DNA from: a virus
Strand: one strand, 5' to 3'
DNA length: 64,000 nt
IMG/VR virus record: IMGVR_UViG_3300046787_000130
Span: 97,238-161,237 of that record
The notes beneath the pieces are model-generated. The model was given only the letters and a program-made list of their open reading frames with translations. It was not told the DNA's origin and made no database searches. This document shows positions 5,432-46,203 of this stretch, one piece after another; positions within the stretch are counted from its first letter, which is position 1, and the number at the start of each line of letters is the position of its first letter. The position numbers and the translations under genes are program-made.

Positions 5432-5460
5432 TTGACTTTTTCATTTTAATCTTTTATACT
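5432..5460 (+). promoter_or_regulatory. Sigma70-type promoter
   Basis: TTGACT-17bp-TATACT. Confidence 0.75.
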
Positions 5461-5521
5461 ATATCTTTCGTATGGTTAGTGGGTATCCTGCTAGCCATGC
5501 TTTTCTTTTTAGGACTATTGT

Positions 5522-6542: not shown

Positions 6543-7283
6543 ATGAAAGTAACCGTAATCACGGCTACTACAGGCAACCCGCTTCTTGCGGGTTGTTTGC
6601 GTTCTGTGGCAGCACAAACCCATAGAGATGTCACCCATGTTGTAGTTGGAGATGGTCCAGAACATTGGGAGAAGATTGACGCAATCTTTACAGATGCTGG
6701 ATTTCCTAATGGGACAAATCAGTTCTATCTTGAGATTCCTTACCCTATCGGAAAAGACCGCTGGAATGCACATCGCATCTATCCAGCAGTAACCTATATG
6801 GCAGAGGGTGACTTCATCATGTATCTTGATGAGGACAATGTTCTTGAGCCTGACCATATTGAATCCCTAATCAAGTTGGTTACAGAAAAGAATCTACATT
6901 GGGCTTATTCGCTCCGTAAGATTATTGACAAGGATGGTAACTATCTCTGTCATGATGATTGCGAGAGTCTGGGCAAGTGGGCTTCTGTACTTGACCCACG
7001 AGACTTCTTTGTAGATGTAAATTGCTACTTTGTGCGAAGGGATGTTGCTGTTGCGATTACACCTGCTTGGTACAGAAAATTCAGAGAACCGGGACAGCCT
7101 GAAGTTGACCGCGTGTTAGCGCACGTGCTGATGAATAACTTCCCACAGTATGATTGCACTTACAATTATTCGTTGCTATATAGAGTAGGCAACACGCAGC
7201 ACTCAGTGCAGAAAGAATTCTTTGAGCGTGGCAATGCCGCTATGTTGCAACGATATGATGGCAAACTTCCTTGGAAGATTTAA
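6543..7283 (+). CDS. Glycosyltransferase family 2 (GT-A)
   Basis: VTVITAT, LRSVAAQT, VVVGDG, YLDEDN (DxD). Confidence 0.88.
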   Translation: MKVTVITATTGNPLLAGCLRSVAAQTHRDVTHVVVGDGPEHWEKIDAIFTDAGFPNGTNQFYLEIPYPIGKDRWNAHRIYPAVTYMAEGDFIMYLDEDNVLEPDHIESLIKLVTEKNLHWAYSLRKIIDKDGNYLCHDDCESLGKWASVLDPRDFFVDVNCYFVRRDVAVAITPAWYRKFREPGQPEVDRVLAHVLMNNFPQYDCTYNYSLLYRVGNTQHSVQKEFFERGNAAMLQRYDGKLPWKI

Positions 7284-7284
7284 T

Positions 7285-8238
7285 ATGGCAGAACAAAGAA
7301 CCTTAGTTTGCGTTTTTGCGCAAACTCGCGAACATGAATTAGTATGGAAGAATTTCAAGAAGAACGTATTAGATGCTCTCAATGCTGACTTGGCTCTTTG
7401 TATTGCTGTACCCGATGACTATGCTTACGCTAATCCATATTGGCAGCATGCTAAGTATAAATGGACTTGTCCAGAATATGAAAACTGGATGGATGCTTTT
7501 GAGTATGCCAAAAAAATTAGTTTCCCTCAAGTTGGTGATGATTGGAAAACTGCATTAACGGTTCCTGGTAATTGGATATCACCGCTAAATGGTAATCCTG
7601 CTGGCGGCGCACTTCAAATCTTTTTTAGATGGTTGCTTTGGCAGCATCTACAAAAAGATGACATTTTTGCGCAATATGATAGGGTTGTCTTTACGCGCTC
7701 TGATTTTATGTTCCTCTCTCCGCATCCTCCAATGGACTTGTTAAGCCAAGAGCATATTTGGCTTCCTAATGGAGAGTACTACGGTGGCGTAACAGACCGT
7801 CATGCAGTTCTTTCGAGAAAGAACGCTGAAGGATATCTTATGGGCATTATGAAAAACATAATGACAAATACGAGCCAATTTTGTGCATGTTTGCGGGAAG
7901 CGGGAAAAAACTACGATAGACATTATGCAACTGATACTGATGACCCTAATAAGGTAATTCCTGTTGGGCTAGAGATGTCTATCAAGGTTAATTTAGATTT
8001 TGAATTTCCGGTAGATACATGTAGATTCTTTCCATATATAATGTATACGGTAAGGTCAGCTGACGGTAAATCGCGCCATAATTATGGAACATGGTACGAA
8101 GAATTAGGCTACTTCATAAAAAGTCCTGAAGAACTGTTTAGCGCAAAAACTTACCAAGCAATTTACGTGAAACCGCAAGATTGGTATACTGTGCCAAGAG
8201 TAGAAGCCCCGCCATATTGGAACTCTACTTGGCCATGA
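7285..8238 (+). CDS. Putative glycosyltransferase-like protein, paralog A
   Basis: YDRVVFTRSDFMF and GGVTDRHAV motifs; glyco-operon context. Confidence 0.6.
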   Translation: MAEQRTLVCVFAQTREHELVWKNFKKNVLDALNADLALCIAVPDDYAYANPYWQHAKYKWTCPEYENWMDAFEYAKKISFPQVGDDWKTALTVPGNWISPLNGNPAGGALQIFFRWLLWQHLQKDDIFAQYDRVVFTRSDFMFLSPHPPMDLLSQEHIWLPNGEYYGGVTDRHAVLSRKNAEGYLMGIMKNIMTNTSQFCACLREAGKNYDRHYATDTDDPNKVIPVGLEMSIKVNLDFEFPVDTCRFFPYIMYTVRSADGKSRHNYGTWYEELGYFIKSPEELFSAKTYQAIYVKPQDWYTVPRVEAPPYWNSTWP

Positions 8239-8261
8239 CAATATAACAAAGGTGAATTGAT

Positions 8262-9140
8262 ATGCAACAACGAACGCTAGTTTGCGTAATCTCTCAAACA
8301 AGAGAACAAGAAATTGTTTGGGATAATTTCAAGAAGAATGTACTGGATACTTTAAACGCTGACTTAGCGTTATGTATTGCTGTATCAGACGATTATGATT
8401 ACTCTAATCCATATTGGCAGAACGCCAAATACAAGTGGACATGTCCAGAGTATAAAGATTGGACTGATGCGTTTGAGTTTGCGAGGCAAACGGATTTTCC
8501 AGAAGCAACTGATGACTGGAAGAAAATTCTAACCATCCCAAGCAACTGGATGTCGCCAATTAACGGGTATCCTGGCGCAGGGTCTATTCTGATTTTCTTC
8601 CGTTGGTTGTTATGGCACAACTTAAAGAAAGAAGACATCTTCAAGCACTATGACCGCATCATCATAACTCGATCAGACTTTATGTTCCTCTGTCCGCATC
8701 CTCCAATGGAACTGCTCCATCCAAATTATATTTGGGTGCCTGATGGTGAACACTATGGCGGCATTACTGACCGTTATGCCGTCTTGTCTGAAAAAAATGC
8801 TGATGGTTACTTCAGCATCATGAAGCATATCATGACCAACACGAACAATCTATATAATACTCTCAAGCAACTGCAAGATGAAATCCAAGATGAAATAAAT
8901 CTGGAAAAGTCTGTTATGAAAGTTTTAGAGTTTGAGTTTGGTCCTAACATATGCAGATTCTTTCCATATATAATGTATTCCGTTAGGTCTAAGGAAGGAA
9001 AAACCCGATGGCAAAGTGGTTACTGGGTTGAGGAATTAGGTTACTACATTAAGTATCCCTCAGAATTCGAACGCGCACAATTCTTTCAACAAATTATCGT
9101 AAAGCCAGAAGATTGGTATCGTATAGCGAGGCAAGAATGA
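8262..9140 (+). CDS. Putative glycosyltransferase-like protein, paralog B
   Basis: Colinear paralog of 7285..8238 (YDRIIITRSDFMF, GGITDRYAV). Confidence 0.6.
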   Translation: MQQRTLVCVISQTREQEIVWDNFKKNVLDTLNADLALCIAVSDDYDYSNPYWQNAKYKWTCPEYKDWTDAFEFARQTDFPEATDDWKKILTIPSNWMSPINGYPGAGSILIFFRWLLWHNLKKEDIFKHYDRIIITRSDFMFLCPHPPMELLHPNYIWVPDGEHYGGITDRYAVLSEKNADGYFSIMKHIMTNTNNLYNTLKQLQDEIQDEINLEKSVMKVLEFEFGPNICRFFPYIMYSVRSKEGKTRWQSGYWVEELGYYIKYPSEFERAQFFQQIIVKPEDWYRIARQE

Positions 9141-10363
9141 TTACAAAAAGTGAACACCTATCTACCTGTTTAATTACTGGTAGCCCAGTACAGAAGATAC
9201 TTGATTTAGGTCAGCATGCGTATGCAGATACCTTCATAGCAGAAAATCAACTTGATTTGTCTGAGCCAGTATTCCCACTACAATTGTTTATGAACTCAGA
9301 TTCAGGTTCAATTCAACTTGGTTACGTTAGCAAGGCTGAAGACCGCTACAATCTATACGGATACAGTTACACCTCAAGCAACTCTCAAACATCAAGAAAT
9401 CATTGGACTGAATATGCTACGACAATACAGGAGAAGTATCCATCTCCTAAACTAGCAGTAGAGATTGGAAGCAATGATGGATATCTAATCAATCAGTTTA
9501 AGTCAACAGCCAAGAGAGTGCTTGGAGTAGACTCATCTGAAGAAATGTGCAATCTTGCCAACGCAAATCATATTCCAACCATCTGCAATTTGTTTGATGA
9601 GACTGTTGCAGATAGTATTCGCGAAGAGTATGGTGAAGCCGATATTATCATGGCTAACAATGTTTTCAATCATGCTAACAATCCAGTTGGGTTTGCTAGA
9701 GGCGTATTGAAACTGTTGTCTGCTAATGGCGTGTTTGTATTTGAGGTTCCATCTTGGGCTGAGATGGTTACTAGCAACCGATTTGTTGATATGGTATACC
9801 ATGAACACATCAGTTACTTTACTGTGCGGAGTTGCTGGAATCTACTACAAGCCGCTGGTCTAGACATCGTTGATTTTAATGTTGTAAATTATCATGGTGG
9901 TAGTCTTAGAATTGAAGCAAAGAAGTCTACTGGGACGGGCATCATGCCCAAGAAGGTTGCTGATGCAATTCAAAAAGAAATTGAACTGGGGCTATTTGAC
10001 GTTAACTTCTATACAACATTTCAGCAAAAGTTAGAGCGCGATAGAAATGCTTGGTTGAACAAGTTCTATCAGATTCTAAATGATGAACCAGATGCCGTAA
10101 TAATCGGTGTTGGAGCAGCAGCAAAGGCTAACACTTGGCTCAACTGGCATCGACTAGATAAGACATTACTGCGTTGTATTACTGATGCATCTCAGTTTAA
10201 GCAAGGTAAGTATACGCCACTAACCCGCATCCCTATTGTCGATGACTCTGAATTTGCTAAGTATGATAAGCCATATGCGCTGGTTTTGAGTTGGAACATT
10301 GGAGATGCTCTAAAGGCTGCACTATTGAAAATTAATCCAAACGTGAGGTTCATTTCGCAATGA
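9137..10363 (+). CDS. NDP-hexose C-methyltransferase (TcaB9/EryBIII/NovU-like)
   Basis: EIGSNDG, ANNVFNH, YHEHISYF, HGGSLR, GAAAKANT, KQGKYTP, LSWN. Confidence 0.9.
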   Translation: MITKSEHLSTCLITGSPVQKILDLGQHAYADTFIAENQLDLSEPVFPLQLFMNSDSGSIQLGYVSKAEDRYNLYGYSYTSSNSQTSRNHWTEYATTIQEKYPSPKLAVEIGSNDGYLINQFKSTAKRVLGVDSSEEMCNLANANHIPTICNLFDETVADSIREEYGEADIIMANNVFNHANNPVGFARGVLKLLSANGVFVFEVPSWAEMVTSNRFVDMVYHEHISYFTVRSCWNLLQAAGLDIVDFNVVNYHGGSLRIEAKKSTGTGIMPKKVADAIQKEIELGLFDVNFYTTFQQKLERDRNAWLNKFYQILNDEPDAVIIGVGAAAKANTWLNWHRLDKTLLRCITDASQFKQGKYTPLTRIPIVDDSEFAKYDKPYALVLSWNIGDALKAALLKINPNVRFISQ

Positions 10364-10764
10364 AAGTCTATAACATCTATATGAATTTAGAAGAAGGTCT
10401 AAGTTCTTTTTCAGATAATCGCGGCAACATTACTGATATCTTCTTCAAGAAGTCTATCAATCATGGTTGTATTATTACTAACAATCCCGGTGCTGTTCGC
10501 GGTAATCATTACCACAATCATACTACTCAATACACCTACATTCTTTCAGGTAGTTTAGAATACTATTCATCTGAAGTTGATAGTAATCTCGTAGAACGTT
10601 ATGTTGCTGTTCCTGGTGATATGATTATAAGCGAACCTCGTGAGATTCATGCAATGCGCGCAGGTGAGGATGGTTGCGTTTTTATTGCTTTTGCAGAAGG
10701 TCCACGCGGCGGCGCTGACTATGAGACTGATACGGTAAGAGTTGAATCAATCATCTATGACTAA
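10360..10764 (+). CDS. Cupin sugar epimerase/isomerase (RmlC/FdtA-like)
   Basis: DNRG, RGNHYH, EIHAM cupin motifs. Confidence 0.8.
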   Translation: MKVYNIYMNLEEGLSSFSDNRGNITDIFFKKSINHGCIITNNPGAVRGNHYHNHTTQYTYILSGSLEYYSSEVDSNLVERYVAVPGDMIISEPREIHAMRAGEDGCVFIAFAEGPRGGADYETDTVRVESIIYD

Positions 10765-11344
10765 GGTTGCTGTAGTTTTTGGGGCAAGTGGCGGGATTGG
10801 AAACGCCACTTGCCTAGCATTGTCTGCTGAATATAAAGTCATTGCTATAACAAGAGAAGAAATTGACTTATTTGACAATCTAAGTTATAATCAGATATGC
10901 GCTTTCCTTACTGCTATGCAACCAGACTTAGTTGTCAACTGCGCAGGACATTTTGCGGACAATACTGAAACGCATAATGCTACGATGGACATCAATGTTG
11001 GCTCTAACTGGAGCATCATTAAACACTACATTGACAATCCATCATCCAAACCTGTTAAAGTTATCCTTGTTGGTTCAAGCGCATATCGTGAGGGCAGAAA
11101 GAACTACATGCTATATGCCGCAAGCAAAGCAGCACTATATAATTTGTGGCTAAGTTCTGCCGAATACTTTCAGAGTAGCAATGTTGCGGTTTCACTAATT
11201 AATCCAGTGAAGACCAAAACTAAGATGATGGACCCAGCATCAACTAGATTCATACTTCCGGAAGATGTAGCGCAAAAAATATTAGCAATGTCATCAACAG
11301 CATTAAGTGAGTGTATTGATTTAGAATACCCGAAGGAGTCGTAA
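10757..11344 (+). CDS. Short-chain dehydrogenase/reductase
   Basis: GASGGIG, VNCAG, SS, YAASK. Confidence 0.88.
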   Translation: MTKVAVVFGASGGIGNATCLALSAEYKVIAITREEIDLFDNLSYNQICAFLTAMQPDLVVNCAGHFADNTETHNATMDINVGSNWSIIKHYIDNPSSKPVKVILVGSSAYREGRKNYMLYAASKAALYNLWLSSAEYFQSSNVAVSLINPVKTKTKMMDPASTRFILPEDVAQKILAMSSTALSECIDLEYPKES

Positions 11345-12121
11345 ATGAAAGTTGGCGTTATTGGAAAAGGCGTAGTTGGTACTGCCGTGTATGAGGGGCT
11401 AAAGCATCTTGGTCATACAGTAAGTTTCTTTGATAAGAAGTATGATGGTTCCAAGGTAGAGGACATCCTAGACACCGATTGCGTTTTCGTATCAGTGCCT
11501 ACAAATCAAGCATCTAACGGCGATTGCGATACCAGCATTGTTGAATCTGTTGTAGCCGAATTAAATGATAGAAACTACAAGGGATTGATTGCTATTAAAA
11601 GCACCGTAATCCCCGGCACATCTGACAAGTTAGCATCCGCATATCCAAATCTGCGAATCTGCTCAGTACCTGAATTCCTCCGCGCTAAGACAGCACTAGC
11701 AGATTTTATGTACAATCATGACCTGCTTATTATTGGTAGCCATAATGATGCGGACTTTGATATAATTAAGAAGATTCATGGGCATCTACCAAAAGCAACA
11801 TCTTGCGTTAAGCCTGTTGAAGCAGAGATTGTAAAGTATTTTAACAACGTTAATCACAGTGTACAAATTATCTTTGCTAACATCTTCTATGATGTATGTA
11901 AAAAGGTTGGTGCTGATTACAATAATGTTTATGATGCTATCATCAAGAGAGAGTGCTTCAACTCATCATACCTAATGTGTAATGAAAACCTCAGAGGATT
12001 TGGCGGACACTGTTTGCCAAAGGATACTAGTGCTTGGGGCAACCTTGTTAAGAATCTTGGACTAGAGTATGCGACAATCCAAGCAGTTCTTTCAGACAAT
12101 GAGAAGATTAACAATGAGTAA
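11345..12121 (+). CDS. ugd: UDP-glucose/GDP-mannose 6-dehydrogenase family (short form)
   Basis: GKGVVG, VPT, IKSTV.PGT, PEFLR, AE.VKY..N, GFGGHCLPKD. Confidence 0.9.
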   Translation: MKVGVIGKGVVGTAVYEGLKHLGHTVSFFDKKYDGSKVEDILDTDCVFVSVPTNQASNGDCDTSIVESVVAELNDRNYKGLIAIKSTVIPGTSDKLASAYPNLRICSVPEFLRAKTALADFMYNHDLLIIGSHNDADFDIIKKIHGHLPKATSCVKPVEAEIVKYFNNVNHSVQIIFANIFYDVCKKVGADYNNVYDAIIKRECFNSSYLMCNENLRGFGGHCLPKDTSAWGNLVKNLGLEYATIQAVLSDNEKINNE

Positions 12122-13007
12122 AATTCTAGTGACTGGTGCCAGCGGTTTGCTGGGGACAGAATTCTGCCGACAACTTACTGAAGCAAATCATGAAGTTTGG
12201 GCTGTTGATAATCATTCACGTTCTAGTACTATTCCACCATGCAGTAAGTGGCTAAAGATTGACTTGAATGATGTAGCAGAACTAAATGCTTTGCCTACTG
12301 ATTTTGATTACATCTATCACTACAGTGCTATTAATGGTACAACAAACTTCTACAAGTATCCGACAAAGGTGCTAACAAATAATTTTGTTTGTGACATTAA
12401 CATATTTGAATTTGCATCACGTTGCGCTAACCTATCTAAGTTGGTATACGCATCAAGCAGCGAAATCGTAGCAGATGACCCAACCCGTCCAGTGCCTGAA
12501 AACACTGATGTGTTTATCAAGAACATTCATAATGCACGTTGGAGTTATCGTCTAGCCAAGATTACAAGTGAAAACTTTTTGGCTAACAGCAATCTGCCTT
12601 GGGTTGTTCTTCGTTACTTTAACGTGTATGGCGAGAATAGCAAGCAAGGGCACTTTCTAGGTGACCAGATTGCTAAGATTAAGAGTGGCGTATTTTCTGT
12701 TATTGGAAGCAACGAAACTAGGTCATTCTGTCATGTTCAGGATGCTATCTTAGCCAGCATCTATGTAGCCGAGAATACTGTTAATCAAGTTGTTAACATT
12801 GGAAATGATAGAGAGATTAGCATTGGTGATGCTGTCAAGGTTATTGCTAAAGAACTTGGTCATCCAGATGCTAACTTTGAAGAACTTCCTAGCATGCCTG
12901 GTTCAGTTGAAAATAGACGCCCCGACATCACCAAACTTAGAAGCATCATGCAACATTACACCCCAATGTCATTTGAAGATGGCATTAGAACAATACTCAA
13001 GAGGTAA
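12114..13007 (+). CDS. NAD-dependent nucleotide-sugar decarboxylase/epimerase (extended SDR)
   Basis: TGASGLLG, ASSSE, RWSYRLAK, RYFNVYG, TRSFCHV, RRPDI. Confidence 0.85.
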   Translation: MSKILVTGASGLLGTEFCRQLTEANHEVWAVDNHSRSSTIPPCSKWLKIDLNDVAELNALPTDFDYIYHYSAINGTTNFYKYPTKVLTNNFVCDINIFEFASRCANLSKLVYASSSEIVADDPTRPVPENTDVFIKNIHNARWSYRLAKITSENFLANSNLPWVVLRYFNVYGENSKQGHFLGDQIAKIKSGVFSVIGSNETRSFCHVQDAILASIYVAENTVNQVVNIGNDREISIGDAVKVIAKELGHPDANFEELPSMPGSVENRRPDITKLRSIMQHYTPMSFEDGIRTILKR

Positions 13008-13010
13008 TTT

Positions 13011-13724
13011 ATGAATCCGTGTATCGTATCATTTTTTATGAATAACATTGACCGTGAAACTGTAGACTTACAAGCAGCTGTTGTGCAGAAGTTTAACAAG
13101 AGCAATGTGAAGCATTACCTCATTAAGGTTGATGCTCCTCATGGAATTGCTATTGATTACTTCTGGGCAATGAATGGTCATAAACCGCATACGTTAGAAA
13201 CATATGATATCAAAGCAACTCTAGACCATGATGTCATTCTGTTTCTAGACATTGATTGTATTCCTCTTCATGAAGATTCAATTGATACTTACCTTGAAGC
13301 AGCCGCAGCTGGAAAGATTATGGGTAATGCCCAACGGTCTAATCATATTGAAAACAATCAGCATGTCTTTGCTGCGCCATCAGCTGCTGCCATCTCACTT
13401 GAGACATTTCTAAAACTTGAAAAGCCTTCAGGATTAGAAACAAAGCGCGGTGATGTTCTTGAAGAGTATACCTTTGCCGCCGAAAAGAGTGGCATCCAAG
13501 TTGACCTTTCAATGCCATTACGTTATGATAATCCTCCTAACCGTTACGATTGGGAAAAAGACCAGCCTCCATATTGGGCACTTGCTGATGGCATGCCTGT
13601 ATATGGTATGGGAACAACTTATGGCGTTGACGGTAAGGAATTGTTCTTCCATAATTTCCAAATTCGAATGGAAGGACAACAGGAAAAGTTTCAGACAAAG
13701 TGTAAGGAAATTCTAAATGGCTAA
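13011..13724 (+). CDS. Putative GT-A glycosyltransferase
   Basis: ILFLDIDCIP DxD motif; RGDV; end of glyco operon. Confidence 0.65.
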   Translation: MNPCIVSFFMNNIDRETVDLQAAVVQKFNKSNVKHYLIKVDAPHGIAIDYFWAMNGHKPHTLETYDIKATLDHDVILFLDIDCIPLHEDSIDTYLEAAAAGKIMGNAQRSNHIENNQHVFAAPSAAAISLETFLKLEKPSGLETKRGDVLEEYTFAAEKSGIQVDLSMPLRYDNPPNRYDWEKDQPPYWALADGMPVYGMGTTYGVDGKELFFHNFQIRMEGQQEKFQTKCKEILNG

Positions 13725-13911
13725 TCGTAGTGATTTTCAGCGCGCAGTACTCCCCCGACAAATCAAAAAGTTTTTGCTTGGTGGTAAGTTTAAAGATGCG
13801 CACGAGTATGGTTCAATGAAACGATTGTTTATTGAAGCCCACAGCATCAATCGTACTGCACGCAACCGTCGCACAACACTTCAACTAGAGACTTCTGACG
13901 CAGAAGGATGA
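13717..13911 (+). CDS. Hypothetical protein
   Basis: SD AAGGA; coupled ORF. Confidence 0.65.
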   Translation: MANRSDFQRAVLPRQIKKFLLGGKFKDAHEYGSMKRLFIEAHSINRTARNRRTTLQLETSDAEG

Positions 13912-14159
13912 ACACTCTAGTTGAACTAAGGACTCTGTTCAGAGAGAACAGAGTTCCTGTAACCGAATATGGTGGTTGGTATTTAAAATGCGGTAATGAT
14001 TCTTGGGGCATAGTTGACGGAGAATACTATAAAAACTACGTCAAGGTTGACAAGAACTTTATCAAACAATATGTAATTGATAAGAGAATGCCTGCGAGAG
14101 CAAGAGCATTTAAAATTAATCCAAATAGGGGATATGAAGATGCCAGTGAGAGTGATTAA
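13908..14159 (+). CDS. Hypothetical protein
   Basis: ATGA overlap. Confidence 0.55.
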   Translation: MNTLVELRTLFRENRVPVTEYGGWYLKCGNDSWGIVDGEYYKNYVKVDKNFIKQYVIDKRMPARARAFKINPNRGYEDASESD

Positions 14160-14436
14160 ATCCGTAACCGGAGAAGAAGTGCTTGGCGATGTTGAAGAGA
14201 TTCAAGGGGGATATCTAGTCTCCAATCCTGTAATTGTTATGCTGCGCGGAATGCCGCAAGGCGGACAGATGGGGCTTGAGTTTGTTCCATACATTGCTTA
14301 TGCAGCAATCAAGTCTGTAGAGTTTGCTACGGATAAGGTAATTCACGTTTTAGAAGTAGACGATTCAGTTAAAAACCAGTATAATACTATCTTTGGCGGC
14401 ATTGTTGTGCCACCTAAGAATATTCTACTGGGGTAA
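14134..14436 (+). CDS. Sm-like/SH3-barrel protein upstream of DNA polymerase
   Basis: K.VTGEEVL..V...NP...Y...FGGIVVP pattern; position before gp43. Confidence 0.65.
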   Translation: MKMPVRVIKSVTGEEVLGDVEEIQGGYLVSNPVIVMLRGMPQGGQMGLEFVPYIAYAAIKSVEFATDKVIHVLEVDDSVKNQYNTIFGGIVVPPKNILLG

Positions 14437-14439
14437 AAC

Positions 14440-16968
14440 TTGAACTTCTATACTAATGTAGCCCTCTCAGGTCGAAACATCCTCCTGAGAGGGATTGAGA
14501 ATGGACAGCGCATTCGCAGGAAGGTGGAGTATCAACCCACCTTCTTTTTGCCGTCTAAAGAACCAACTGAATTTAAGACTCTGACAGGAGAGTACGTTGC
14601 TCCTGTTCAACCCGGCACTATTCCTGATTGCCGTGAGTTTGTTAACAAGTACAAAGATGTTGACAACTTTGCCATCTATGGCAACACCCGATACAAGTAT
14701 GCCTTCATTGGTGAAGAGTATCCTGGTCTAATTGATTGGGATATCTCTAAGATTCTTGTTGCATATCTCGACATTGAGGTCGCATCTGATGACGGGTTTC
14801 CTGAACCTAAAGATGCTAACAAAGAAATCACCGCCATTACCATTAAACTTGGTAACAAGATTCATACCTTTGGTTGCGGTGAATACAATAACACGCAAAG
14901 TCATGTAAAGTACCATAAGTGCGCTGATGAGTATTCATTGCTCAGTCAGTTCATTGACCTGTGGACTTTGTATTGCCCTGATGTTGTTACTGGTTGGAAC
15001 GTCAATCTGTTTGACATCACTTACATCGTAAACCGTATCATCAACCTTATGGGTGAGAGTGAAGCAAAGAAACTCTCTCCATGGAATCAGGTTCATGCGC
15101 GAGAGACAACTATTCAGAATCGTACATTCCAAGTGTATGATATTGTTGGCGTGAGTGTACTTGACTATCTTGATTTGTACAAGAAGTATCCGATGCCCAA
15201 GTCGCAAGAGTCTTGGAAGTTGGACCATATCGCATTTATTGAACTTGGTGAAAACAAGTTAGACTACTCTGAGCATGGCTCTTTGTTTAGTCTATACAAG
15301 GAAGATTTTCAGAAGTTTATTGACTACAATATTCGTGACGTTGAACTTGTTGCTAAGTTGAATGACAAGGGTCGATTGATTGACCTTGCTCTGACTCTAG
15401 CCTATGTTGCTAAGGTAAACTACGATGACGTGTTTGCTCAAGTGACAATGTGGGATGCTATTACCTATAATCATATGCTTGAGAAAGGTATTGTTGTTCC
15501 GCAGCCAAAGGACAAGAGCAAGAAGGAACAATATGCCGGCGCGTATGTTAAGGAACCTGTTCCTGGCGCATATGATTACGTTGCATCCTTTGACTTGAAC
15601 TCTCTGTATCCGCATCTAATCATGCAATACAATATCTCTATGGAGACTCTAATCCAGCCTGATGCATATTCATTAGAGATGAAGGCTATCCGTCAGAGTG
15701 ATATGTCTGTAGATGAGTTGCTATGTAAAGGCGTGTACACTGACTTCCTAGTTGGACAGGATGCTACGATGGCGGCTAATGGTCAGTTCTTCAAGCGTGA
15801 TAGAATGGGCATGATGCCTGAGATTATGGACTTGATGTATAAGGATAGAACCAAGTACAAGAACATGGCTCAGGATGCTAAGAAGAAGTTACAGACTGTT
15901 CTTGGTGATAAGAAGCAGGTTGAGTATCTTGAAAAGGAAGTCTCGCGATATAACAATCTACAGTTGGCAATGAAGGTTACTCTAAACTCCGCTTATGGCG
16001 CGATGGGTAACAACTACTTCCGATTCTTTGATTTGCGTATTGCTGAAGCCATTACCTACTCTGGTCAGTTGTCTATCCGTTGGATTATGAACAAAGTCAA
16101 TCAGTACATGAATAGTGTGCTCAAGACAAACAAGGATTATATTGTTGCGTCTGATACTGACTCCATCTATATCCATCTTGGACCGCTAATTGAGAAGGTT
16201 GGCATCACGGATAAGAAGAAAGCCATTGACTTCATGAACAAGGTTTGTGAGGAGAAGATTCAGCCATACATCGACAAGTCATTCCAAGAACTGGCTGAGT
16301 ATCTAAATGCTTATGACCAGAAGATGTTCATGAAGCGCGAATCTCTTGCTGACAAGGCTATCTGGACTGCGAAGAAGAATTATCTTCTTAATGTTTGGGA
16401 TGATGAGGGTGTCGTATATAAGGAGCCTAAGATTAAGATTGTTGGCATGGCTGCGGTCAAGTCATCAACTCCATCTGCTTGCCGGTCTAAGATTCGTGAA
16501 GCAATCAAGATTATGATTCAGCAAGATGAAGCCACAATGATTCAGTTCATTGATAAGTTTCGTAATGAATTTAAAACTCTGCCTCTTGAAGAGATATCAT
16601 TCCCCCGTGGCGTGACTGGTCTTGCTGAATACTCTGATGGCTCTAACATCTACAAGAAGGGTACTCCAATCCACGTCAAAGCCTCGCTGACCCATAATCA
16701 TTTTATTGATGCGATGCGTCTTACCAAGAAGTATCAACTCATCAAGGAAGGTGAAAAGATTAAGTTCATCTATCTGAAGGAACCTAATCCATTTAGAAAT
16801 AATACACTTGCGTTCATGAATGAAATGCCAAAAGAGTTTAATGCCGAGAGATACATAGATTATGACCTCCAGTTTGAGACATCTTTCCTAAAGCCGTTGC
16901 GTATCATCCTTGATGCGATTGGTTGGAAGACTGAGCAGGTCAATTCAATCGACGACTTTTTCGGGTAA
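14440..16968 (+). CDS. 43: Family B DNA polymerase (gp43), TTG start
   Basis: DIEV exo I, SFDLNSLYP, KVTLNSAYG, SDTDS, KKNY; no intein-sized insertion. Confidence 0.98.
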   Translation: MNFYTNVALSGRNILLRGIENGQRIRRKVEYQPTFFLPSKEPTEFKTLTGEYVAPVQPGTIPDCREFVNKYKDVDNFAIYGNTRYKYAFIGEEYPGLIDWDISKILVAYLDIEVASDDGFPEPKDANKEITAITIKLGNKIHTFGCGEYNNTQSHVKYHKCADEYSLLSQFIDLWTLYCPDVVTGWNVNLFDITYIVNRIINLMGESEAKKLSPWNQVHARETTIQNRTFQVYDIVGVSVLDYLDLYKKYPMPKSQESWKLDHIAFIELGENKLDYSEHGSLFSLYKEDFQKFIDYNIRDVELVAKLNDKGRLIDLALTLAYVAKVNYDDVFAQVTMWDAITYNHMLEKGIVVPQPKDKSKKEQYAGAYVKEPVPGAYDYVASFDLNSLYPHLIMQYNISMETLIQPDAYSLEMKAIRQSDMSVDELLCKGVYTDFLVGQDATMAANGQFFKRDRMGMMPEIMDLMYKDRTKYKNMAQDAKKKLQTVLGDKKQVEYLEKEVSRYNNLQLAMKVTLNSAYGAMGNNYFRFFDLRIAEAITYSGQLSIRWIMNKVNQYMNSVLKTNKDYIVASDTDSIYIHLGPLIEKVGITDKKKAIDFMNKVCEEKIQPYIDKSFQELAEYLNAYDQKMFMKRESLADKAIWTAKKNYLLNVWDDEGVVYKEPKIKIVGMAAVKSSTPSACRSKIREAIKIMIQQDEATMIQFIDKFRNEFKTLPLEEISFPRGVTGLAEYSDGSNIYKKGTPIHVKASLTHNHFIDAMRLTKKYQLIKEGEKIKFIYLKEPNPFRNNTLAFMNEMPKEFNAERYIDYDLQFETSFLKPLRIILDAIGWKTEQVNSIDDFFG

Positions 16969-16973
16969 CAAAA

Positions 16974-20565: not shown

Positions 20566-20568
20566 ATA
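20561..20568 (+). promoter_or_regulatory. T4-type late promoter
   Basis: TATAAATA about 30 nt upstream of 20600. Confidence 0.7.
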
Positions 20569-20599
20569 GGATATCCGTGGAATTCTTAGAGAGCAAACA

Positions 20600-21340: not shown

Positions 21341-21347
21341 GTAATTT

Positions 21348-22283
21348 ATGACTGTACTTGTGACTGGTGGATTGGGCTTCATTGGCTCAAATTTTGTTAT
21401 TCGTCATCTTGAAAAGTATCCTGATGAACGAGTAGTTGTTGTAGATAATGAATCTTATGCTGCTTCTAGGACAAATTTGTCTTGTGTTGCAGATAAGGTA
21501 ATCGTACACAAAGTTGACATTGCCGATAAAGATAGAATGAATAAGGTGATGGCAAAGTATATGCCGCACATCATCTACAACTTTGCGGCTGAATCTCACG
21601 TTGATAACTCTATTGCAGATGATTCTGTATTTTATCAGACTAATGTGATGGGTACACTTAACCTTTTACATCTGGTAAAAGAATATCAAATCAAGTTGCT
21701 TCACGTATCAACAGATGAAGTCTATGGCTCTTTGTCTCTAGATACAACTGATGTCTTTACTGAAAAGACTCCGTACAATCCGTTGAATCCATACTCTGCT
21801 AGCAAAGCCGCATCTGACCATATGGTGCGCGCATATGTCAATACGCATAAGATTAAAGCAGTTGTAACTAATTGCTCTAACAACTATGGACCAAGACAGC
21901 ATAGCGAGAAATTAATTCCTACAATCATCCGTAGGGCTAAGGCTAATATGACCATTCCCATCTATGGTAATGGCTCTAACGTTCGCGATTGGTTGTATGT
22001 AGATGACCACTGTGATGCGTTGTTGCGTATTAATGAAGCCTTTGTATATGGAGAACGATACAACATTGGCGGTCATAATGAACTGACCAATCTGTCTCTT
22101 GCGCGATACATTCTTGACCTTATGGGCAAACCTCGCAGCCTAATTGAGTTTGTCAAAGACCGTCCCGGGCATGACGCTAGATATGCTATATCCACTAAGA
22201 AAATTGAAAAAGAACTTAAGTGGCGTCCTACAACAACCCTTGAAGTTGGTATGAAGAAGACATTGGAGTATTATAATGCGTAA
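21348..22283 (+). CDS. rmlB: dTDP-glucose 4,6-dehydratase
   Basis: TGGLGFIGSN, FAAESHVD, STDEVYG, YSASK, NCSNNYGP, DRPGHD. Confidence 0.96.
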   Translation: MTVLVTGGLGFIGSNFVIRHLEKYPDERVVVVDNESYAASRTNLSCVADKVIVHKVDIADKDRMNKVMAKYMPHIIYNFAAESHVDNSIADDSVFYQTNVMGTLNLLHLVKEYQIKLLHVSTDEVYGSLSLDTTDVFTEKTPYNPLNPYSASKAASDHMVRAYVNTHKIKAVVTNCSNNYGPRQHSEKLIPTIIRRAKANMTIPIYGNGSNVRDWLYVDDHCDALLRINEAFVYGERYNIGGHNELTNLSLARYILDLMGKPRSLIEFVKDRPGHDARYAISTKKIEKELKWRPTTTLEVGMKKTLEYYNA

Positions 22284-23172
22284 AGGTATTGTTCTTTCTG
22301 GCGGTCTAGGAACCAGACTCTATCCATGCACAGAAGTTATCTCAAAGCAGCTGCTTCCTGTATATGACAAGCCATTAATCTATTATCCTATTGCTACGCT
22401 AATGTTGGCTGGCATTAGTGATATCATGGTCATTACCAATCCCGAAAACAATTTCCAGTTCCAGACTCTGTTGCGTGATGGTTCACAGTGGGGAATCAAC
22501 ATCTGTTATGCAACACAAAGAGAACCAAAAGGTATTGCTGACGCGTTGCTAATTGCTCAAGGATTTATTGGTAAAGATGACTTTGCTCTAATCCTTGGAG
22601 ATAACATCTACTACGGCAATGACCTTGTAAACCGTCTAGAGCGTTCAAATAGAGATGTTTGGGCTTCAACTTTGTTTGCTTATCATGTAAGTGACCCTGA
22701 ACGTTTTGGTGTTCTTGAGTTTGGTGAGGATAACCAGCCAAAGCGTATTCTTGAAAAACCTGCTGTTGCCCCGTCTAATTACGCAGTGACAGGTCTATAC
22801 TTTTACAAAAACATCGCACTACACTATGCAAATCAACTCAAGCCATCTCCTCGCGGTGAACTTGAAATTACAGACCTTAACAATCTGCTAATGCAAAACA
22901 CTGAGGTTGAGATTGAGTTTATGAATCGCGGTATTGCTTGGATTGATACAGGCACGTTTGATTCTCTTGCTGAGGCATCAACCTTTGTCGCTTCTGTGCA
23001 GAAGCGCACTGGCACTATGATTTGTTGCCCTGAAGAGATTGCATTTAAGAATGGGTGGATTGAAAAGGCTGAGTTGCTAGAAGCAGCAACTAAGTACGGT
23101 AAATCTGATTATGGTACTTACTTGAGGAAGATTGCTGATGAACAAAGAGTTAGCCCAATACGTCGATATTAA
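22276..23172 (+). CDS. rmlA: Glucose-1-phosphate thymidylyltransferase
   Basis: GG.GTRLYP, KQLLPVYDKP, LGDN, EKP, RGELEITD, W.DTGT. Confidence 0.97.
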   Translation: MRKGIVLSGGLGTRLYPCTEVISKQLLPVYDKPLIYYPIATLMLAGISDIMVITNPENNFQFQTLLRDGSQWGINICYATQREPKGIADALLIAQGFIGKDDFALILGDNIYYGNDLVNRLERSNRDVWASTLFAYHVSDPERFGVLEFGEDNQPKRILEKPAVAPSNYAVTGLYFYKNIALHYANQLKPSPRGELEITDLNNLLMQNTEVEIEFMNRGIAWIDTGTFDSLAEASTFVASVQKRTGTMICCPEEIAFKNGWIEKAELLEAATKYGKSDYGTYLRKIADEQRVSPIRRY

Positions 23173-23668
23173 GTATTTCCAAGATGACCGTGGTTACTTC
23201 TGTGAGACATTAAATCTTTCTAAACCGCCATTTAATGAACTAACTTATGTGCAAAGCAATATGTCAGTTAACAATAATGGCGCGTTGCGAGGAATGCACT
23301 ATCAGCATAAGTATCCTCAAGGCAAGTTCTGCTATGTAGCATCTGGGGCAGCATTTGATTTCGTAATTGATTTGCGAAAGGATTCTCCAGATTTTATGAA
23401 GTGTCGCACTTTCTTCATAGAGCCAAAAGGTCCAGCAGTCTGGGTTCCTCCTGGTTATGCTCACGGGTTTTTCTCTTGCCGCGAAAACACCGTATTCTGC
23501 TACCATGTATTTGGTAATGCTTGGCACAAGGATGATGAGCACTCAATTAATCCATTAACCGTGCCTGATATCAAGCATATGGTAGATGTTAAACTTGACG
23601 TAATTGTTTCACCAAAGGATATTGCTGGTTATGACTATGCTGCATCAACTTGTCCCATCTATGAATAA
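23138..23668 (+). CDS. rmlC: dTDP-4-dehydrorhamnose 3,5-epimerase
   Basis: DDRGYF, LRGMHYQ, QGK, DLRK.SP, PPGYAHGF. Confidence 0.94.
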   Translation: MNKELAQYVDIKYFQDDRGYFCETLNLSKPPFNELTYVQSNMSVNNNGALRGMHYQHKYPQGKFCYVASGAAFDFVIDLRKDSPDFMKCRTFFIEPKGPAVWVPPGYAHGFFSCRENTVFCYHVFGNAWHKDDEHSINPLTVPDIKHMVDVKLDVIVSPKDIAGYDYAASTCPIYE

Positions 23669-24527
23669 GAGAATTGTAATCCTTGGCGCTCGTGGTCAGA
23701 TTGGTAGTGAGATTACCAAACTAGTCCGCGAGGGATTACATCAATGGTGGGCGCTAAATGGGACAGCCATAGATTATAATGACCCAGACCGAATCCGTCG
23801 AATTATGGATGAGATTCAACCTGAAGTTATCATCAACTGCGCTGCATACACTAATGTTGCTGCGGCTGAAGAGGATGTTAATCATCGGTCAGTTAGTGCA
23901 ATGAACATTCAATTACCTAAGAATCTAACTGATGCTGCCGTCGAACACAACGCTGAAATTATTCATTTCTCTACAGACTATGTGTATGACGGTAAGAAGA
24001 ATGAGTATAGAGAAGACGACAGGGTCAAGCCATTAAATCATTATGGCTTGACCAAGAGCATTGGTGATAAGTTTGTACTTGAGTATCCTAAGTCTAAGGT
24101 GTTTCGAGTTCAAGCCGTTTACTCCAACCGCAACACCAATTTCTTCAAGAGCATTCAAGCCAAAGCCCTAGTCGATGAACCTGCTACTGTAGTCTCAGAC
24201 CAGTTTACAACTCCAACATCAGCAAACTGGATTGCCAAGCAGGTCTATCGTACTCTGTTCATGCCTCAATATGGTTTGTATCATCTATCTCCTAATGGCT
24301 TTTGTTCATTTGCGGACTTTGCTGAGTTGATTTATGCTACCAATTACCCAACAATTTACAGTAAGTCAACTCCTCCTATCAAGAGAATCCATTACAAAGA
24401 CCTAAACGCATCTGTAAATCGCCCTATGGTGACCATTTTAAACCATGAAAAGTTTGATAATGCGTTCTTTCCTATTACAGAAACATGGGAAGATGTGTAT
24501 AGAGAGTTTATTAAAATACCTAAATAA
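23661..24527 (+). CDS. rmlD: dTDP-4-dehydrorhamnose reductase
   Basis: GARGQIG, NCAAYTNV, STDYVYDG, YGLTK, DQ..PT. Confidence 0.93.
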   Translation: MNKRIVILGARGQIGSEITKLVREGLHQWWALNGTAIDYNDPDRIRRIMDEIQPEVIINCAAYTNVAAAEEDVNHRSVSAMNIQLPKNLTDAAVEHNAEIIHFSTDYVYDGKKNEYREDDRVKPLNHYGLTKSIGDKFVLEYPKSKVFRVQAVYSNRNTNFFKSIQAKALVDEPATVVSDQFTTPTSANWIAKQVYRTLFMPQYGLYHLSPNGFCSFADFAELIYATNYPTIYSKSTPPIKRIHYKDLNASVNRPMVTILNHEKFDNAFFPITETWEDVYREFIKIPK

Positions 24528-45236: not shown

Positions 45237-45237
45237 T

Positions 45238-46201: not shown

Positions 46202-46203
46202 CA

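What the first reader, a model, noticed from the sequence alone, without database searches (positions are those of the whole stretch)
6543..13724. Phage operon for a C-methyl-branched sugar plus four transferases: candidate undescribed viral glycosylation pathway
Seen: nine tightly packed genes in order GT2, two GT-like paralogs, NDP-sugar C-methyltransferase, cupin epimerase, SDR, UDP-glucose dehydrogenase, decarboxylase-like SDR, GT-A. Known: TcaB9/EryBIII-type enzymes C3-methylate NDP-4-keto sugars, and cupin plus ketoreductase finish branched sugars in antibiotic and O-antigen pathways. Inference: the phage makes a 3-C-methyl sugar, either from UDP-4-keto-pentose (UGD then decarboxylase) or from dTDP-4-keto-6-deoxyglucose (RmlB at 21348). 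It would then attach this sugar to virion proteins, DNA bases or the host surface. The operon lies just upstream of gp43 behind a sigma70 promoter, which would fit DNA hypermodification, but no hydroxymethylase is visible in this window.
Basis: partly seen in the sequence, partly recalled or inferred. Interest (0 to 1): 0.8.

Follow-up and report, generated by a model that had tools for sequence, protein, structure and literature searches.

The report
Swappable branched-sugar island in T4-like phage
A T4-like freshwater phage carries a swappable seven-gene block between two conserved sugar-transferase genes beside its DNA polymerase gene; five of those genes are a cassette, shared with many other phages, that probably makes a rare methyl-branched sugar, whose target is unknown.

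Summary
One correction: the "UDP-glucose dehydrogenase" is a 258-aa short form. It keeps the NAD domain and the catalytic Cys motif but lacks the UDP-binding domain.

The unit is composite:
- g4-g8 (C-methyltransferase, metal cupin, short SDR, short dehydrogenase, UXS-like SDR) form a mobile cassette. About 60 viral contigs of at least two phage lineages keep it in the same order.
- g1 (GT2) and g9 (GT-A, DID motif) are a conserved frame in 80 contigs of this T4-like clade.
- The slot between g1 and g9 holds different sugar cargo in different relatives. A relative about 93% identical in nucleotides loses homology exactly at the g8/g9 junction.

Best reading: a soluble, cytoplasmic pathway runs NDP-hexose to uronate to 4-keto-pentose, then C-methylation, epimerisation and reduction. 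Island-specific GT-A enzymes transfer the product. The chemistry is inferred, not shown.

The target is open. Virion proteins are favoured. Host surface glycan and DNA are not excluded: this genome has a Tet/JBP cassette, but two near-complete relatives with g1+g9 have neither that nor a ThyA-like hydroxymethylase.

The scan noted the same cassette before on other DNA. I found no paper describing it.

The parts
6543..7283 (+). g1: GT2-family glycosyltransferase, left frame gene of the island (conserved in 60 of 80 clade contigs)
   Evidence: Pfam PF00535 at 32.5 bits, above the 23.3 cut-off. Directly adjacent to g9 in many relatives. Soluble. No PDB sequence hit.
7282..8238 (+). g2: GT-A-fold, DUF7796-like putative glycosyltransferase; tandem paralog of g3; island cargo
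   Evidence: 59% identical to g3. Weak PF25072 hit. The start overlaps the g1 stop.
8262..9140 (+). g3: GT-A-fold, DUF7796-like putative glycosyltransferase, translationally coupled to the methyltransferase gene
   Evidence: AF2 pLDDT 94.8; VIA-align Z 12.1 to GnT-I and 11.4 to GT6 enzymes. The family has more than 600 clusters, all unnamed. Look-alike clusters are mostly Nucleocytoviricota.
9137..10363 (+). g4: SAM-dependent NDP-sugar C-methyltransferase (TcaB9/MtmC type), first gene of the mobile cassette
   Evidence: Methyltransf_13, _23 and _14 domains. E 1.8e-48 to 4rv9 over 387 residues. YHEH, ANNVFNH and YSYTSSNS are invariant in 46 homologues; the zinc cysteines are lost.
10360..10764 (+). 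g5: metal-type cupin, candidate keto-sugar epimerase or isomerase (CapF C-terminal-domain type)
   Evidence: PF07883 at 31.8 bits and PF14667 at 30.2 bits, both above cut-off. NHYH..Q and EIH are invariant. Weak match to the Cap5F cupin.
10757..11344 (+). g6: short classical SDR (195 aa), candidate keto-reductase
   Evidence: adh_short E 1.3e-16. GASGGIG and YAASK motifs are read directly from the sequence. Present in the cassette in 54 of 61 loci and moved upstream in some others.
11345..12121 (+). g7: short-form NDP-sugar 6-dehydrogenase-like protein (NAD and central domains only)
   Evidence: PF03721 and PF00984 only. Aligns to positions 71-296 of the 413 in TIGR03026, at 139.8 bits against a cut-off of 189.8. 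The Rossmann motif, PEFL, KYFNN and GGHCLPKD are invariant. No PF03720 domain in the genome.
12114..13007 (+). g8: extended SDR of the UXS / UDP-GlcA 4-epimerase group, candidate uronate 4-oxidase-decarboxylase
   Evidence: Family profile against the PDB: UXS1 93 bits, UDP-GlcA epimerase 88, UAXS 54, ArnA 42. S-S-E, Y145/K149 and R203 are invariant.
13011..13724 (+). g9: GT-A glycosyltransferase with DID motif, right frame gene of the island (in all 80 clade contigs, which were retrieved with g9 itself)
   Evidence: AF2 pLDDT 95.5. Foldseek hits beta4GalT7, LH3, STIV A197, Mimivirus R699 and PBCV-1 A64R. L79-D80-I81-D82 are invariant. In relative L140, homology to the window begins about 10 nt upstream of the g9 start, at the g8/g9 junction.
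21348..24527 (+). rmlB-rmlA-rmlC-rmlD: dTDP-L-rhamnose pathway; likely second donor for the same glycan and an alternative source of a 4-keto sugar
   Evidence: RmlB 407.6 bits and RmlA 402.5 bits pass the NCBIfam equivalog cut-offs. RmlC and RmlD give best hits just under cut-off.

Best explanation
The region is a hypervariable sugar island framed by two clade-conserved soluble glycosyltransferases, g1 and g9. In this phage the slot holds two GT-A paralogs (g2, g3) and a five-gene cassette (g4-g8) that moves between phage lineages as one block.

Proposed working; every enzymatic step is inferred from family membership and conserved residues, none is shown:
1. g7 oxidises C6 of a host NDP-hexose to the uronate.
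2. g8 oxidises C4 and decarboxylates, giving an NDP-4-keto-pentose.
3. g4 uses SAM to methylate the carbon next to the keto group.
4. g5 epimerises or isomerises the keto sugar.
5. g6 reduces the keto group.
6. g2/g3 then add the branched sugar. g1 and g9, with dTDP-rhamnose from rmlBACD, build the rest of a glycan on a cytoplasmic acceptor, most likely virion proteins.

Swapping the cargo would change the glycan between otherwise near-identical phages.
For: Cassette as a unit:
- The order g4-g5-(g6)-g7-g8 is identical in about 60 IMG/VR contigs at 60-80% identity. These include contigs of 235-347 kb from another lineage, where the cassette sits between queD and queE.

Frame and slot:
- The g9 scan kept 80 contigs, so g9 is present in all of them by construction. 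In 60 of them g1 is also present, with a variable slot between g1 and g9, followed in most by three small ORFs and gp43.
- g1 and g9 abut in many of these contigs.
- Other cargo includes a heptose-type pathway with a different C-methyltransferase (L197) and an FkbM methyltransferase (L164).
- L140 is 93% identical in nucleotides downstream, but its homology ends at the g8/g9 junction.

Chemistry:
- g4 matches the solved sugar 3-C-methyltransferases over their full length and keeps YHEH.
- g8 has S-S-E and YxxxK, and UXS1 is its best PDB hit.
- g7 keeps its catalytic residues.
- Short dehydrogenases sit beside extended SDRs in most of 75 further viral contigs (about half directly abutting) and occur fused to a nucleotidyltransferase, a GT2 or a GT1.
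- g5 plus g6 parallel CapF, a cupin plus SDR that does C3-epimerisation then C4-reduction.

Location and acceptor:
- All nine proteins lack transmembrane segments.
- The genome has no Bac_transf, no WecA-type transferase and no Wzx flippase.
Against: - No enzyme activity, product or acceptor is known.
- g7 lacks the domain that binds the nucleotide in all characterised family members, so its substrate may not be a free NDP-sugar.
- g8 scores far below the NCBIfam UXS cut-off (33 bits against 294), and UDP-GlcA 4-epimerase is nearly as good a match. A 4-keto product may therefore never be released.
- A second, more UXS/ArnA-like SDR is encoded at 46955-47941.
- After methylation at C3 a cupin cannot epimerise C3, so the order and role of g5 are unclear.
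- There is no evidence that T4-like virions are glycosylated.
- Expression appears to be from an early-type promoter inside the replication module, not with virion genes.
Confidence: 0.5

Rival explanations
1. Two separate sugars. The methyltransferase, cupin and short SDR (g4-g6) work on a 4-keto-6-deoxyhexose, either dTDP-4-keto-6-deoxyglucose from the phage RmlA/RmlB or a host pool. They would make a 3-C-methyl-6-deoxyhexose, as in the mycarose or virenose type pathways. Independently, g7+g8 supply a uronic acid or a pentose such as UDP-GalA or UDP-xylose.
For: - All solved relatives of g4 act on dTDP-4-keto-6-deoxy sugars.
- RmlA and RmlB are present and pass equivalog cut-offs.
- A cyanophage C-methyltransferase lies beside a GDP-mannose 4,6-dehydratase (H20).
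- The pair of short dehydrogenase and SDR occurs widely without any methyltransferase, so it is a module in its own right.
- UDP-GlcA 4-epimerase is nearly as good a match to g8 as UXS.
Against: - In the roughly 55 loci of the other lineage, no rmlA and no close rmlB homologue lies within 10 kb. The SDRs found 7-9 kb upstream are only 21-29% identical to RmlB.
- The five genes are overlap-coupled and are always inherited together.
Confidence: 0.25
2. DNA target. The transferases glycosylate a modified base, for example 5-hydroxymethyluracil made by the phage Tet/JBP enzyme. The swappable island would then diversify a DNA hypermodification against restriction enzymes and DNA glycosylases.
For: - The genome encodes Tet_JBP, an amino-acid:DNA transferase and a P-loop kinase about 11 kb upstream of g1, followed by a weak Anp1-like (GT-A) ORF.
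- The island lies in the replication module, probably behind an early-type promoter. From established T4 genetics, the T4 DNA glucosyltransferase genes also lie in that module.
- In the other lineage the cassette sits between the 7-deazaguanine genes queD and queE.
- All the enzymes are soluble.
Against: - Two relatives that keep g1+g9 (complete, 172.6 kb; and 95% complete, 178.7 kb) have no Tet_JBP and no ThyA-like hydroxymethylase.
- The own genome has no ThyA-like enzyme.
- The hmU in this phage already has a kinase/transferase route.
- The window carries six or more transferase-type genes, three sugar pathways and an FkbM methyltransferase, which is more than known DNA glycosylations use.
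- DUF7796 look-alikes are mostly in giant viruses, where glycans decorate capsids and fibrils (PMC9614988).
Confidence: 0.12
3. Host-surface target. The enzymes add sugars at the cytoplasmic face to the host's own lipid-linked O-antigen, capsule or S-layer glycan intermediates. This would change the cell surface during infection, giving superinfection exclusion or sparing progeny from binding debris.
For: - GT2, GT25 and FkbM families are typical of LPS and capsule loci.
- The architecture of conserved flanks around a variable centre resembles O-antigen loci.
- Early expression would leave time for export.
Against: - The phage has no initiating phosphoglycosyltransferase, WecA-type enzyme or Wzx flippase.
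- None of the nine proteins has a membrane segment.
- A strictly lytic T4-like cycle leaves little time for surface turnover (inference).
Confidence: 0.2

Closest known systems
NDP-hexose 3-C-methyltransferases TcaB9, MtmC (D-mycarose) and KijD1-type (PDB 3ndi, 4rv9, 5t64)
   Same: g4 aligns over their full length (387 residues, E 1e-48 to 1e-35). It has the same three domains and the conserved YHEH active-site motif.
   Different: Identity is only about 30%. The four zinc-binding cysteines are lost. The genomic partners are a dehydrogenase and a UXS-like SDR, not a 4,6-dehydratase, 2,3-dehydratase or aminotransferase. The context is viral.
UDP-glucose dehydrogenase plus UDP-glucuronate decarboxylase (UGD + UXS/ArnA/U4kpxs) route to UDP-xylose or UDP-4-keto-pentose
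   Same: A dehydrogenase gene is followed by, and overlap-coupled to, an SDR whose best solved relative is human UXS1. The S-E and YxxxK catalytic residues are present.
   Different: The dehydrogenase has no UDP-binding domain. The SDR is far below the NCBIfam UXS cut-off and is equally near UDP-GlcA 4-epimerase.
CapF / WbjC of the UDP-L-FucNAc pathway (SDR domain fused to a cupin domain)
   Same: A cupin of family PF14667 is paired with an SDR in a keto-sugar pathway. CapF does C3-epimerisation and then C4-reduction.
   Different: Here they are two separate small proteins. The SDR is a classical 195-aa type. The sequence match to the Cap5F cupin is weak (E 0.018).
Autonomous glycosylation machinery of giant viruses (chloroviruses, Megavirinae)
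   Same: The virus encodes its own nucleotide-sugar pathways, including rhamnose, and many soluble GT-A enzymes. Gene content is clade-specific (PMC10117803, PMC9614988). The g2/g3 look-alike clusters are mostly from giant viruses, and g9 resembles Mimivirus R699 and PBCV-1 A64R in fold.
   Different: This is a tailed phage of 161 kb. The word 'C-methyl' does not occur in the 2022 review. The target here is unknown.
Virion glycosylation of mycobacteriophages by phage-encoded glycosyltransferases
   Same: Phage-encoded soluble glycosyltransferases are thought or shown to decorate capsid and tail proteins. I cite this second hand, through papers that hold the phrase.
   Different: Those phages use host sugar nucleotides and keep the genes near the structural genes. 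Here the sugar is self-made and the genes lie in the replication module.
Bacterial O-antigen and capsule loci (conserved flanks, variable sugar-specific centre)
   Same: Two conserved flanking genes enclose interchangeable sugar-synthesis and transferase cargo, and recombination breakpoints fall at the flank genes.
   Different: There is no Wzx, Wzy, initiating transferase or export genes. It is carried by a lytic-type phage.

Membership tests
NDP-sugar C-methyltransferase (TcaB9/MtmC/TylC3 type) | Three-domain architecture: N-terminal zinc-ribbon domain, SAM methyltransferase domain, C-terminal Methyltransf_14 domain | tested here: met
   PF08421 33.1 bits, PF13489 59.8 bits and PF08484 102.6 bits, all above cut-off.
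NDP-sugar C-methyltransferase (TcaB9/MtmC/TylC3 type) | Four cysteines that bind the structural zinc | tested here: not met
   In the alignment to 4rv9, CRMC and CRSC face CLIT and NSDS. Only one Cys is kept, and only at 80-97% frequency, in 46 homologues.
NDP-sugar C-methyltransferase (TcaB9/MtmC/TylC3 type) | Active-site Y-H-E-H segment and Asn/His of the sugar pocket | tested here: met
   YHEH aligns to YHEH of 4rv9. YHEH and ANNVFNH are invariant.
NDP-sugar C-methyltransferase (TcaB9/MtmC/TylC3 type) | SAM-dependent methyl transfer to the carbon next to a 4-keto group of an NDP-sugar | not testable with these tools
   Needs an enzyme assay.
UDP-glucose/GDP-mannose 6-dehydrogenase | NAD-binding N-terminal domain and central domain with catalytic Cys (GGxCxxKD) | tested here: met
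   PF03721 and PF00984. GFGGHCLPKD aligns to the Cys motif of 3vtf and 1mfz. The motif is invariant.
UDP-glucose/GDP-mannose 6-dehydrogenase | C-terminal nucleotide-sugar-binding domain (PF03720) | tested here: not met
   The protein ends at about position 296 of the 413-position model. No PF03720 domain in the whole genome at E 0.1, while the control genomes are positive. The top 120 homologues are all 256-266 aa.
UDP-glucose/GDP-mannose 6-dehydrogenase | Score above the NCBIfam subfamily cut-off (TIGR03026) | tested here: not met
   139.8 bits against a cut-off of 189.8.
UDP-glucuronate decarboxylase (UXS/ArnA group) | Catalytic Ser/Thr followed by Glu, plus Tyr-x3-Lys | tested here: met
   SSSE aligns to STSE of human UXS1, and YRLAK to YDEGK. 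S116, E117, Y145 and K149 are invariant.
UDP-glucuronate decarboxylase (UXS/ArnA group) | Closer to decarboxylases than to other extended SDRs | tested here: inconclusive
   In the profile search UXS1 is top at 93 bits, but UDP-GlcA 4-epimerase reaches 88 bits and 6dnt 92 bits. NF008872 scores only 33 bits against a cut-off of 294.
CapF-type cupin (PF14667) | Domain score above the gathering threshold, and a metal-binding His cluster | tested here: met
   30.2 bits against 28.7. NHYH..Q and EIH are invariant in 44 homologues.
GT-A fold glycosyltransferases | GT-A (Rossmann-like) fold and a DXD-type motif | tested here: met
   g1: PF00535 above cut-off. g3: Z 10-12 to GT13 and GT6 enzymes. g9: Foldseek probability 1.00 to GT7, LH3 and viral GTs, with an invariant DID. 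For g2/g3 the metal motif is not identified; only the invariant D131, R137-S138-D139 and D170-R171 are seen.
dTDP-L-rhamnose pathway (RmlABCD) | All four enzymes present at equivalog level | tested here: inconclusive
   RmlB 407.6 bits (cut-off 365.1) and RmlA 402.5 (360.65) pass. RmlC 109.5 (155.75) and RmlD 214.9 (224.05) are best hits but under cut-off.
Phage DNA base glycosylation systems (T-even hmC glucosylation, TET/JBP-linked glycosylation) | A hydroxymethyl-pyrimidine-forming enzyme co-occurs with the transferases | tested here: inconclusive
   Met in this genome: Tet_JBP at 82.6 bits. Not met in two near-complete relatives that keep g1+g9. No ThyA-like enzyme in any of the genomes tested.
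Lipid-linked surface polysaccharide (Wzx/Wzy-type) loci | Initiating phosphoglycosyltransferase and flippase | tested here: not met
   No PF02397, PF00953 or PF01943 domain in the 96%-complete genome.

The most novel reading that the evidence does not exclude
The island is a diversity-generating DNA-hypermodification locus. In this reading the transferases put a self-made methyl-branched pentose, and rhamnose, on hydroxymethyluracil made by the phage Tet/JBP enzyme. In the other lineage the acceptor would be a 7-deazaguanine. Swapping the cargo would re-code the DNA sugar coat to escape restriction enzymes and DNA glycosylases. A milder novel element is more likely, at about 0.3: the short dehydrogenases are a new two-domain enzyme class that needs its partner SDR, or a bound acceptor, to hold the nucleotide sugar.
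Probability: 0.12. Interest if true: 0.9.

Novelty: new variant of a known kind. Interest (0 to 1): 0.62.

Why it matters
- **No described precedent found.** I found no description of a methyl-branched sugar in any virus. If the cassette makes one, phages can synthesise a sugar known so far from antibiotic and O-antigen pathways.
- **It is common.** The cassette is in about 60 IMG/VR contigs, and its dehydrogenase family has more than 800 protein clusters. One in-vitro reconstitution would therefore annotate many environmental phage genes.
- **A natural experiment.** Two conserved transferases enclose interchangeable sugar cargo, and the break between near-identical phages falls exactly at a flank gene. 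This gives phages a counterpart of bacterial O-antigen loci and a way to ask what selects for glycan diversity in phages.
- **An open enzymology question.** The short-form dehydrogenase keeps its catalytic residues, lacks a nucleotide-binding domain, sometimes carries an intein, and is sometimes fused to transferases. How it binds its substrate is testable.

Tried and rejected
**Searches that gave little**
- Megablast of the 7.2-kb region against 50,697 phage records: no match. The methyltransferase by tblastn found only matches of 31% identity or less, in huge uncultured phages and one cyanophage.
- PHROGs gave only generic hits for four of the nine proteins.
- The genome-contig scan with g7 found one distant relative (27% identity), so no bacterial cassette was recovered. 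This method needs near-exact peptide words, so absence from bacteria is not shown.
- The PDB sequence search with g1 found nothing.
- Four literature searches for a phage or viral C-methyltransferase, or for DUF7796, found nothing relevant.

**Ideas rejected or left unsupported**
- g6-stop-g7 as one read-through gene. They are in the same frame with a single stop between them. I rejected this because g7 has its own Rossmann motif and start codon, homologues are separate 257-aa proteins, and g6 is missing or relocated in some loci.
- g7 as a decaying pseudogene. Rejected: 102 invariant positions across 47 homologues, and a large family of the same length.
- hhalign of the other lineage's upstream gene (c6) against g1, g3 and g9 showed no significant relation.
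UAXS scores 54 bits and ArnA 42, against 93 for UXS1.
- A late promoter for the island. TATAAATA occurs three times in the window, which is chance level, and none lies before g1.

- The look-up of encoding contigs and the look-up of sequencing runs. I therefore could not look up the exact contigs that encode the distant and fused g7 homologues by that route (related viral loci were reached with the search for related loci instead), nor any RNA or virome read support.

Full report
**Setting**

The window is the last 64 kb of a 161,237-bp IMG/VR virus record estimated 96% complete. It is T4-like. gp43 is 51% identical to the cyanomyovirus polymerases, and UvsX, gp41, gp44 and gp45 are present. 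No phage record in GenBank matches the region at the DNA level.

Nine + strand ORFs fill 6543-13724. After refining the start codons from homologue lengths and overlaps, the junctions are as follows:

| Junction | Spacing |
|---|---|
| g1/g2 | 4-nt overlap |
| g2/g3 | 23-nt gap |
| g3/g4 | 4-nt overlap |
| g4/g5 | 4-nt overlap |
| g5/g6 | 8-nt overlap |
| g6/g7 | no gap |
| g7/g8 | 8-nt overlap |
| g8/g9 | 3-nt gap |

- **g1:** GT2.
- **g2 and g3:** 59% identical paralogs. The g3 model (pLDDT 94.8) has a GT-A fold, Z 12.1 to GnT-I and about 11 to GT6 enzymes.
- **g4:** carries all three domains of the sugar C-methyltransferases. It aligns over 387 residues to D-mycarose 3-C-methyltransferase (E 1.8e-48) and TcaB9 (E 8e-38).
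- **g5:** a cupin.
- **g6:** a 195-aa classical SDR.
- **g7:** belongs to the UDP-glucose/GDP-mannose dehydrogenase family.
- **g8:** an extended SDR.
- **g9:** no Pfam hit, but it folds (pLDDT 95.5) as a GT-A enzyme with an invariant Asp-Ile-Asp. It resembles beta4GalT7, the LH3 transferase domain, STIV A197, Mimivirus R699 and PBCV-1 A64R.

**Correction 1: the dehydrogenase is a short form**

- g7 (258 aa) matches only positions 71-296 of the 413-position NCBIfam model and falls below its cut-off.
- It has its own Rossmann motif, and the PEFL, KYFNN and GGHCLPKD motifs that align to the catalytic residues of solved enzymes.
- It ends where the UDP-binding domain should begin. No such domain is encoded anywhere in the genome.
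- This is not decay. The best 120 of 850 related clusters are all 256-266 aa. At 50% clustering, 135 representatives score below 1e-30, and nearly all are 245-285 aa. 102 positions are invariant among 47 cassette homologues.
- Some members carry an intein at or just before the catalytic Cys motif. Others are fused to a sugar-phosphate nucleotidyltransferase, a GT2 or a GT1. These fusions tie the family to nucleotide-sugar metabolism.
- In 75 further viral contigs the short dehydrogenase mostly lies beside an extended SDR (about half directly abutting it). These SDRs are GalE/TviC-like, UXS/ArnA-like or GDP-mannose dehydratase.

**Correction 2: the nine genes are not one evolutionary unit**

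- A scan of IMG/VR with g4 returned 61 loci. All 61 hold g4, g5, g7 and g8, and 60 hold them in the same order at 60-80% identity; g6 hits are found in 54, in the cassette in about 49.
- Only four of these loci are T4-like relatives that also hold g1, one g2/g3 homologue and g9.
- The rest belong to another lineage, with contigs up to 347 kb. There the cassette lies between queD and a queE-like gene, behind an unrelated upstream gene, among folE, a phosphoribosyltransferase, SAM synthetase and others.
- So g4-g8 is a mobile five-gene cassette.
- Conversely, a scan with the g9 family returned 80 contigs of the T4-like clade. Their backbone is g1, a variable slot, g9, three small ORFs, gp43, uvsX and gp41, often followed by rmlB and rmlA.
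- In many of them g1 and g9 abut. In others the slot holds different cargo. One has a GT2, an SDR, a different three-domain C-methyltransferase, a second methyltransferase, a GHMP kinase, a SIS isomerase and a cytidylyltransferase, which is a heptose-type pathway. Another has an FkbM methyltransferase.
- Contig L140 is 93% identical in nucleotides to window 13717-21977 and 89.5% over g9. Its homology stops at window position 13001, the g8/g9 junction, and a different cargo follows upstream.
- The island is therefore a hypervariable slot framed by two conserved transferases, with recent exchange of cargo.

**How the cassette most likely works (inferred, not shown)**

- The g8 family profile is closest to human UDP-glucuronate decarboxylase (93 bits), with UDP-glucuronate 4-epimerase close behind (88 bits). 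UDP-apiose/xylose synthase (54) and ArnA (42) are well below.
- Its Ser-Ser-Glu and Tyr-x3-Lys align to the Thr-Ser-Glu and Tyr-x3-Lys of UXS1 and are invariant.
- A dehydrogenase overlap-coupled to such an SDR suggests hexose to uronate to 4-keto-pentose.
- The methyltransferase family alkylates the carbon next to a 4-keto group. Its YHEH segment is conserved, although the structural zinc site is lost.
- g5 passes the threshold of PF14667, the cupin domain of CapF. CapF is an SDR-cupin enzyme that epimerises C3 and then reduces C4 of a keto sugar (PMC3699295). With g6 it could play the same two roles as separate proteins.
- Weak points: g7 lacks a nucleotide-binding domain. A UXS-type enzyme may not release the keto intermediate. 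A second, more UXS/ArnA-like SDR sits at 46955-47941. The role of an epimerase after C3 methylation is unclear.
- The main rival is that g4-g6 use dTDP-4-keto-6-deoxyglucose from the phage's own RmlA/RmlB, which pass equivalog cut-offs, while g7/g8 make a second sugar. Against this, the cassette in the other lineage has no rmlA and only remote SDRs nearby.

**Target**

- All nine proteins lack membrane segments.
- The genome has no initiating phosphoglycosyltransferase, no WecA-type enzyme and no Wzx flippase. So the acceptor is reached in the cytoplasm.
- The window holds further glycan genes: rmlBACD (21348-24527), a GT25-domain protein, a TPR-FkbM methyltransferase and the SDR at 46955. This points to a multi-sugar, methylated glycan.
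Tet_JBP, a glutamine amidotransferase, an amino-acid:DNA transferase and a P-loop kinase lie about 11 kb upstream of g1.
- However, two relatives that keep g1 and g9 (one complete with terminal repeats, one 95% complete) have neither Tet_JBP nor a ThyA-like enzyme. The conserved transferases are therefore not tied to hydroxymethyl-pyrimidine DNA.
- Look-alikes of g2/g3 are mostly in giant viruses, whose glycans decorate capsids and fibrils (PMC9614988, PMC10117803).
- I therefore rank the targets as virion or other phage-made proteins first, host glycan intermediates second and DNA third. None is shown.

**Expression**

- Promoter-like sites are no more frequent than chance (29 found, 25.9 expected).
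- There is no gap before g1.
- The best candidate, TTGACT-17-TATACT at 5432-5460, precedes a metallophosphoesterase gene and a 68-codon ORF that run into g1.
- A TATAAATA lies 32 nt before the ORF that heads the rml genes. However, three such sites in the window is chance level.

**Novelty**

- I found no paper on a phage or viral sugar C-methyltransferase, nor on DUF7796.
- The 2022 review of giant-virus glycans does not contain the word 'C-methyl'.
- The scan's own notes show the same cassette flagged several times on other genomes.
- Each part belongs to a known kind. What is new is the combination, the short dehydrogenase and the swappable-island architecture.

**Limits**

Noticed in passing
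window 40669-47941: A third glycan-related cluster. It holds a 535-aa protein with a GT25 domain, a 325-aa unknown, a 670-aa TPR plus FkbM-methyltransferase protein, two small unknowns, and a 328-aa SDR. The SDR scores 96.8 bits to UDP-4-keto-pentose/UDP-xylose synthase and 88 bits to the ArnA C-terminal domain.
   Followed up: partly
L064:8541-9398 (genome about 94540-95397, just before the window): A 285-aa ORF directly after the hmU-kinase-like gene of the Tet/JBP cassette has a weak Anp1 (GT62, GT-A) hit at E 5.7e-5. It could be a transferase linked to the DNA-modification cassette.
   Followed up: no
proteins P0379, P0381, P0407, P0441, P0430 (homologues of g7): These short dehydrogenases carry an intein with a LAGLIDADG endonuclease, inserted at or just before the catalytic Cys motif.
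   Followed up: no
proteins P0493, P0447, P0367: Natural fusions of the short dehydrogenase: to a sugar-phosphate nucleotidyltransferase at its N-terminus, to a GT2 at its C-terminus, and to a GT1 at its C-terminus.
   Followed up: partly
L140:1-5100: A close relative (93% nucleotide identity downstream) has a different island cargo. It starts with a 244-aa protein that looks like a nucleotidyltransferase. It also has an extra 247-aa gene between g9 and the next ORF, which is a paralog of the 240-aa gene upstream of g9.
   Followed up: partly
window 20561-20568: TATAAATA, a T4-type late-promoter core, lies 32 nt upstream of a 246-aa ORF (20600-21340) that heads the rmlBACD genes. Only three such sites occur in the window, which is chance level.
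   Followed up: no
window 24558-25715: A 385-aa DUF6267 protein (E 1e-104) lies directly after rmlD. It is followed by 627-aa and 836-aa ORFs with no Pfam match, in a stretch with strong AT skew.
   Followed up: no
window 5470-5500: A 14-bp-stem hairpin followed by a T-run lies between the best sigma70-like promoter (5432-5460) and the metallophosphoesterase start codon at 5522. It could be a terminator of the upstream unit or an attenuator.
   Followed up: no
window 16974-17831: A 285-aa ORF between gp43 and uvsX has a strongly hydrophobic segment (mean Kyte-Doolittle 2.99 over 19 residues) and no Pfam hit. It is conserved in about 20 clade contigs.
   Followed up: no
L034:15523-16770 and equivalents in L019, L025, L030, L046: Some phages of the other lineage carry, besides the short dehydrogenase of the cassette, a second dehydrogenase of 415-420 aa next to the queE-like gene.
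   Followed up: no
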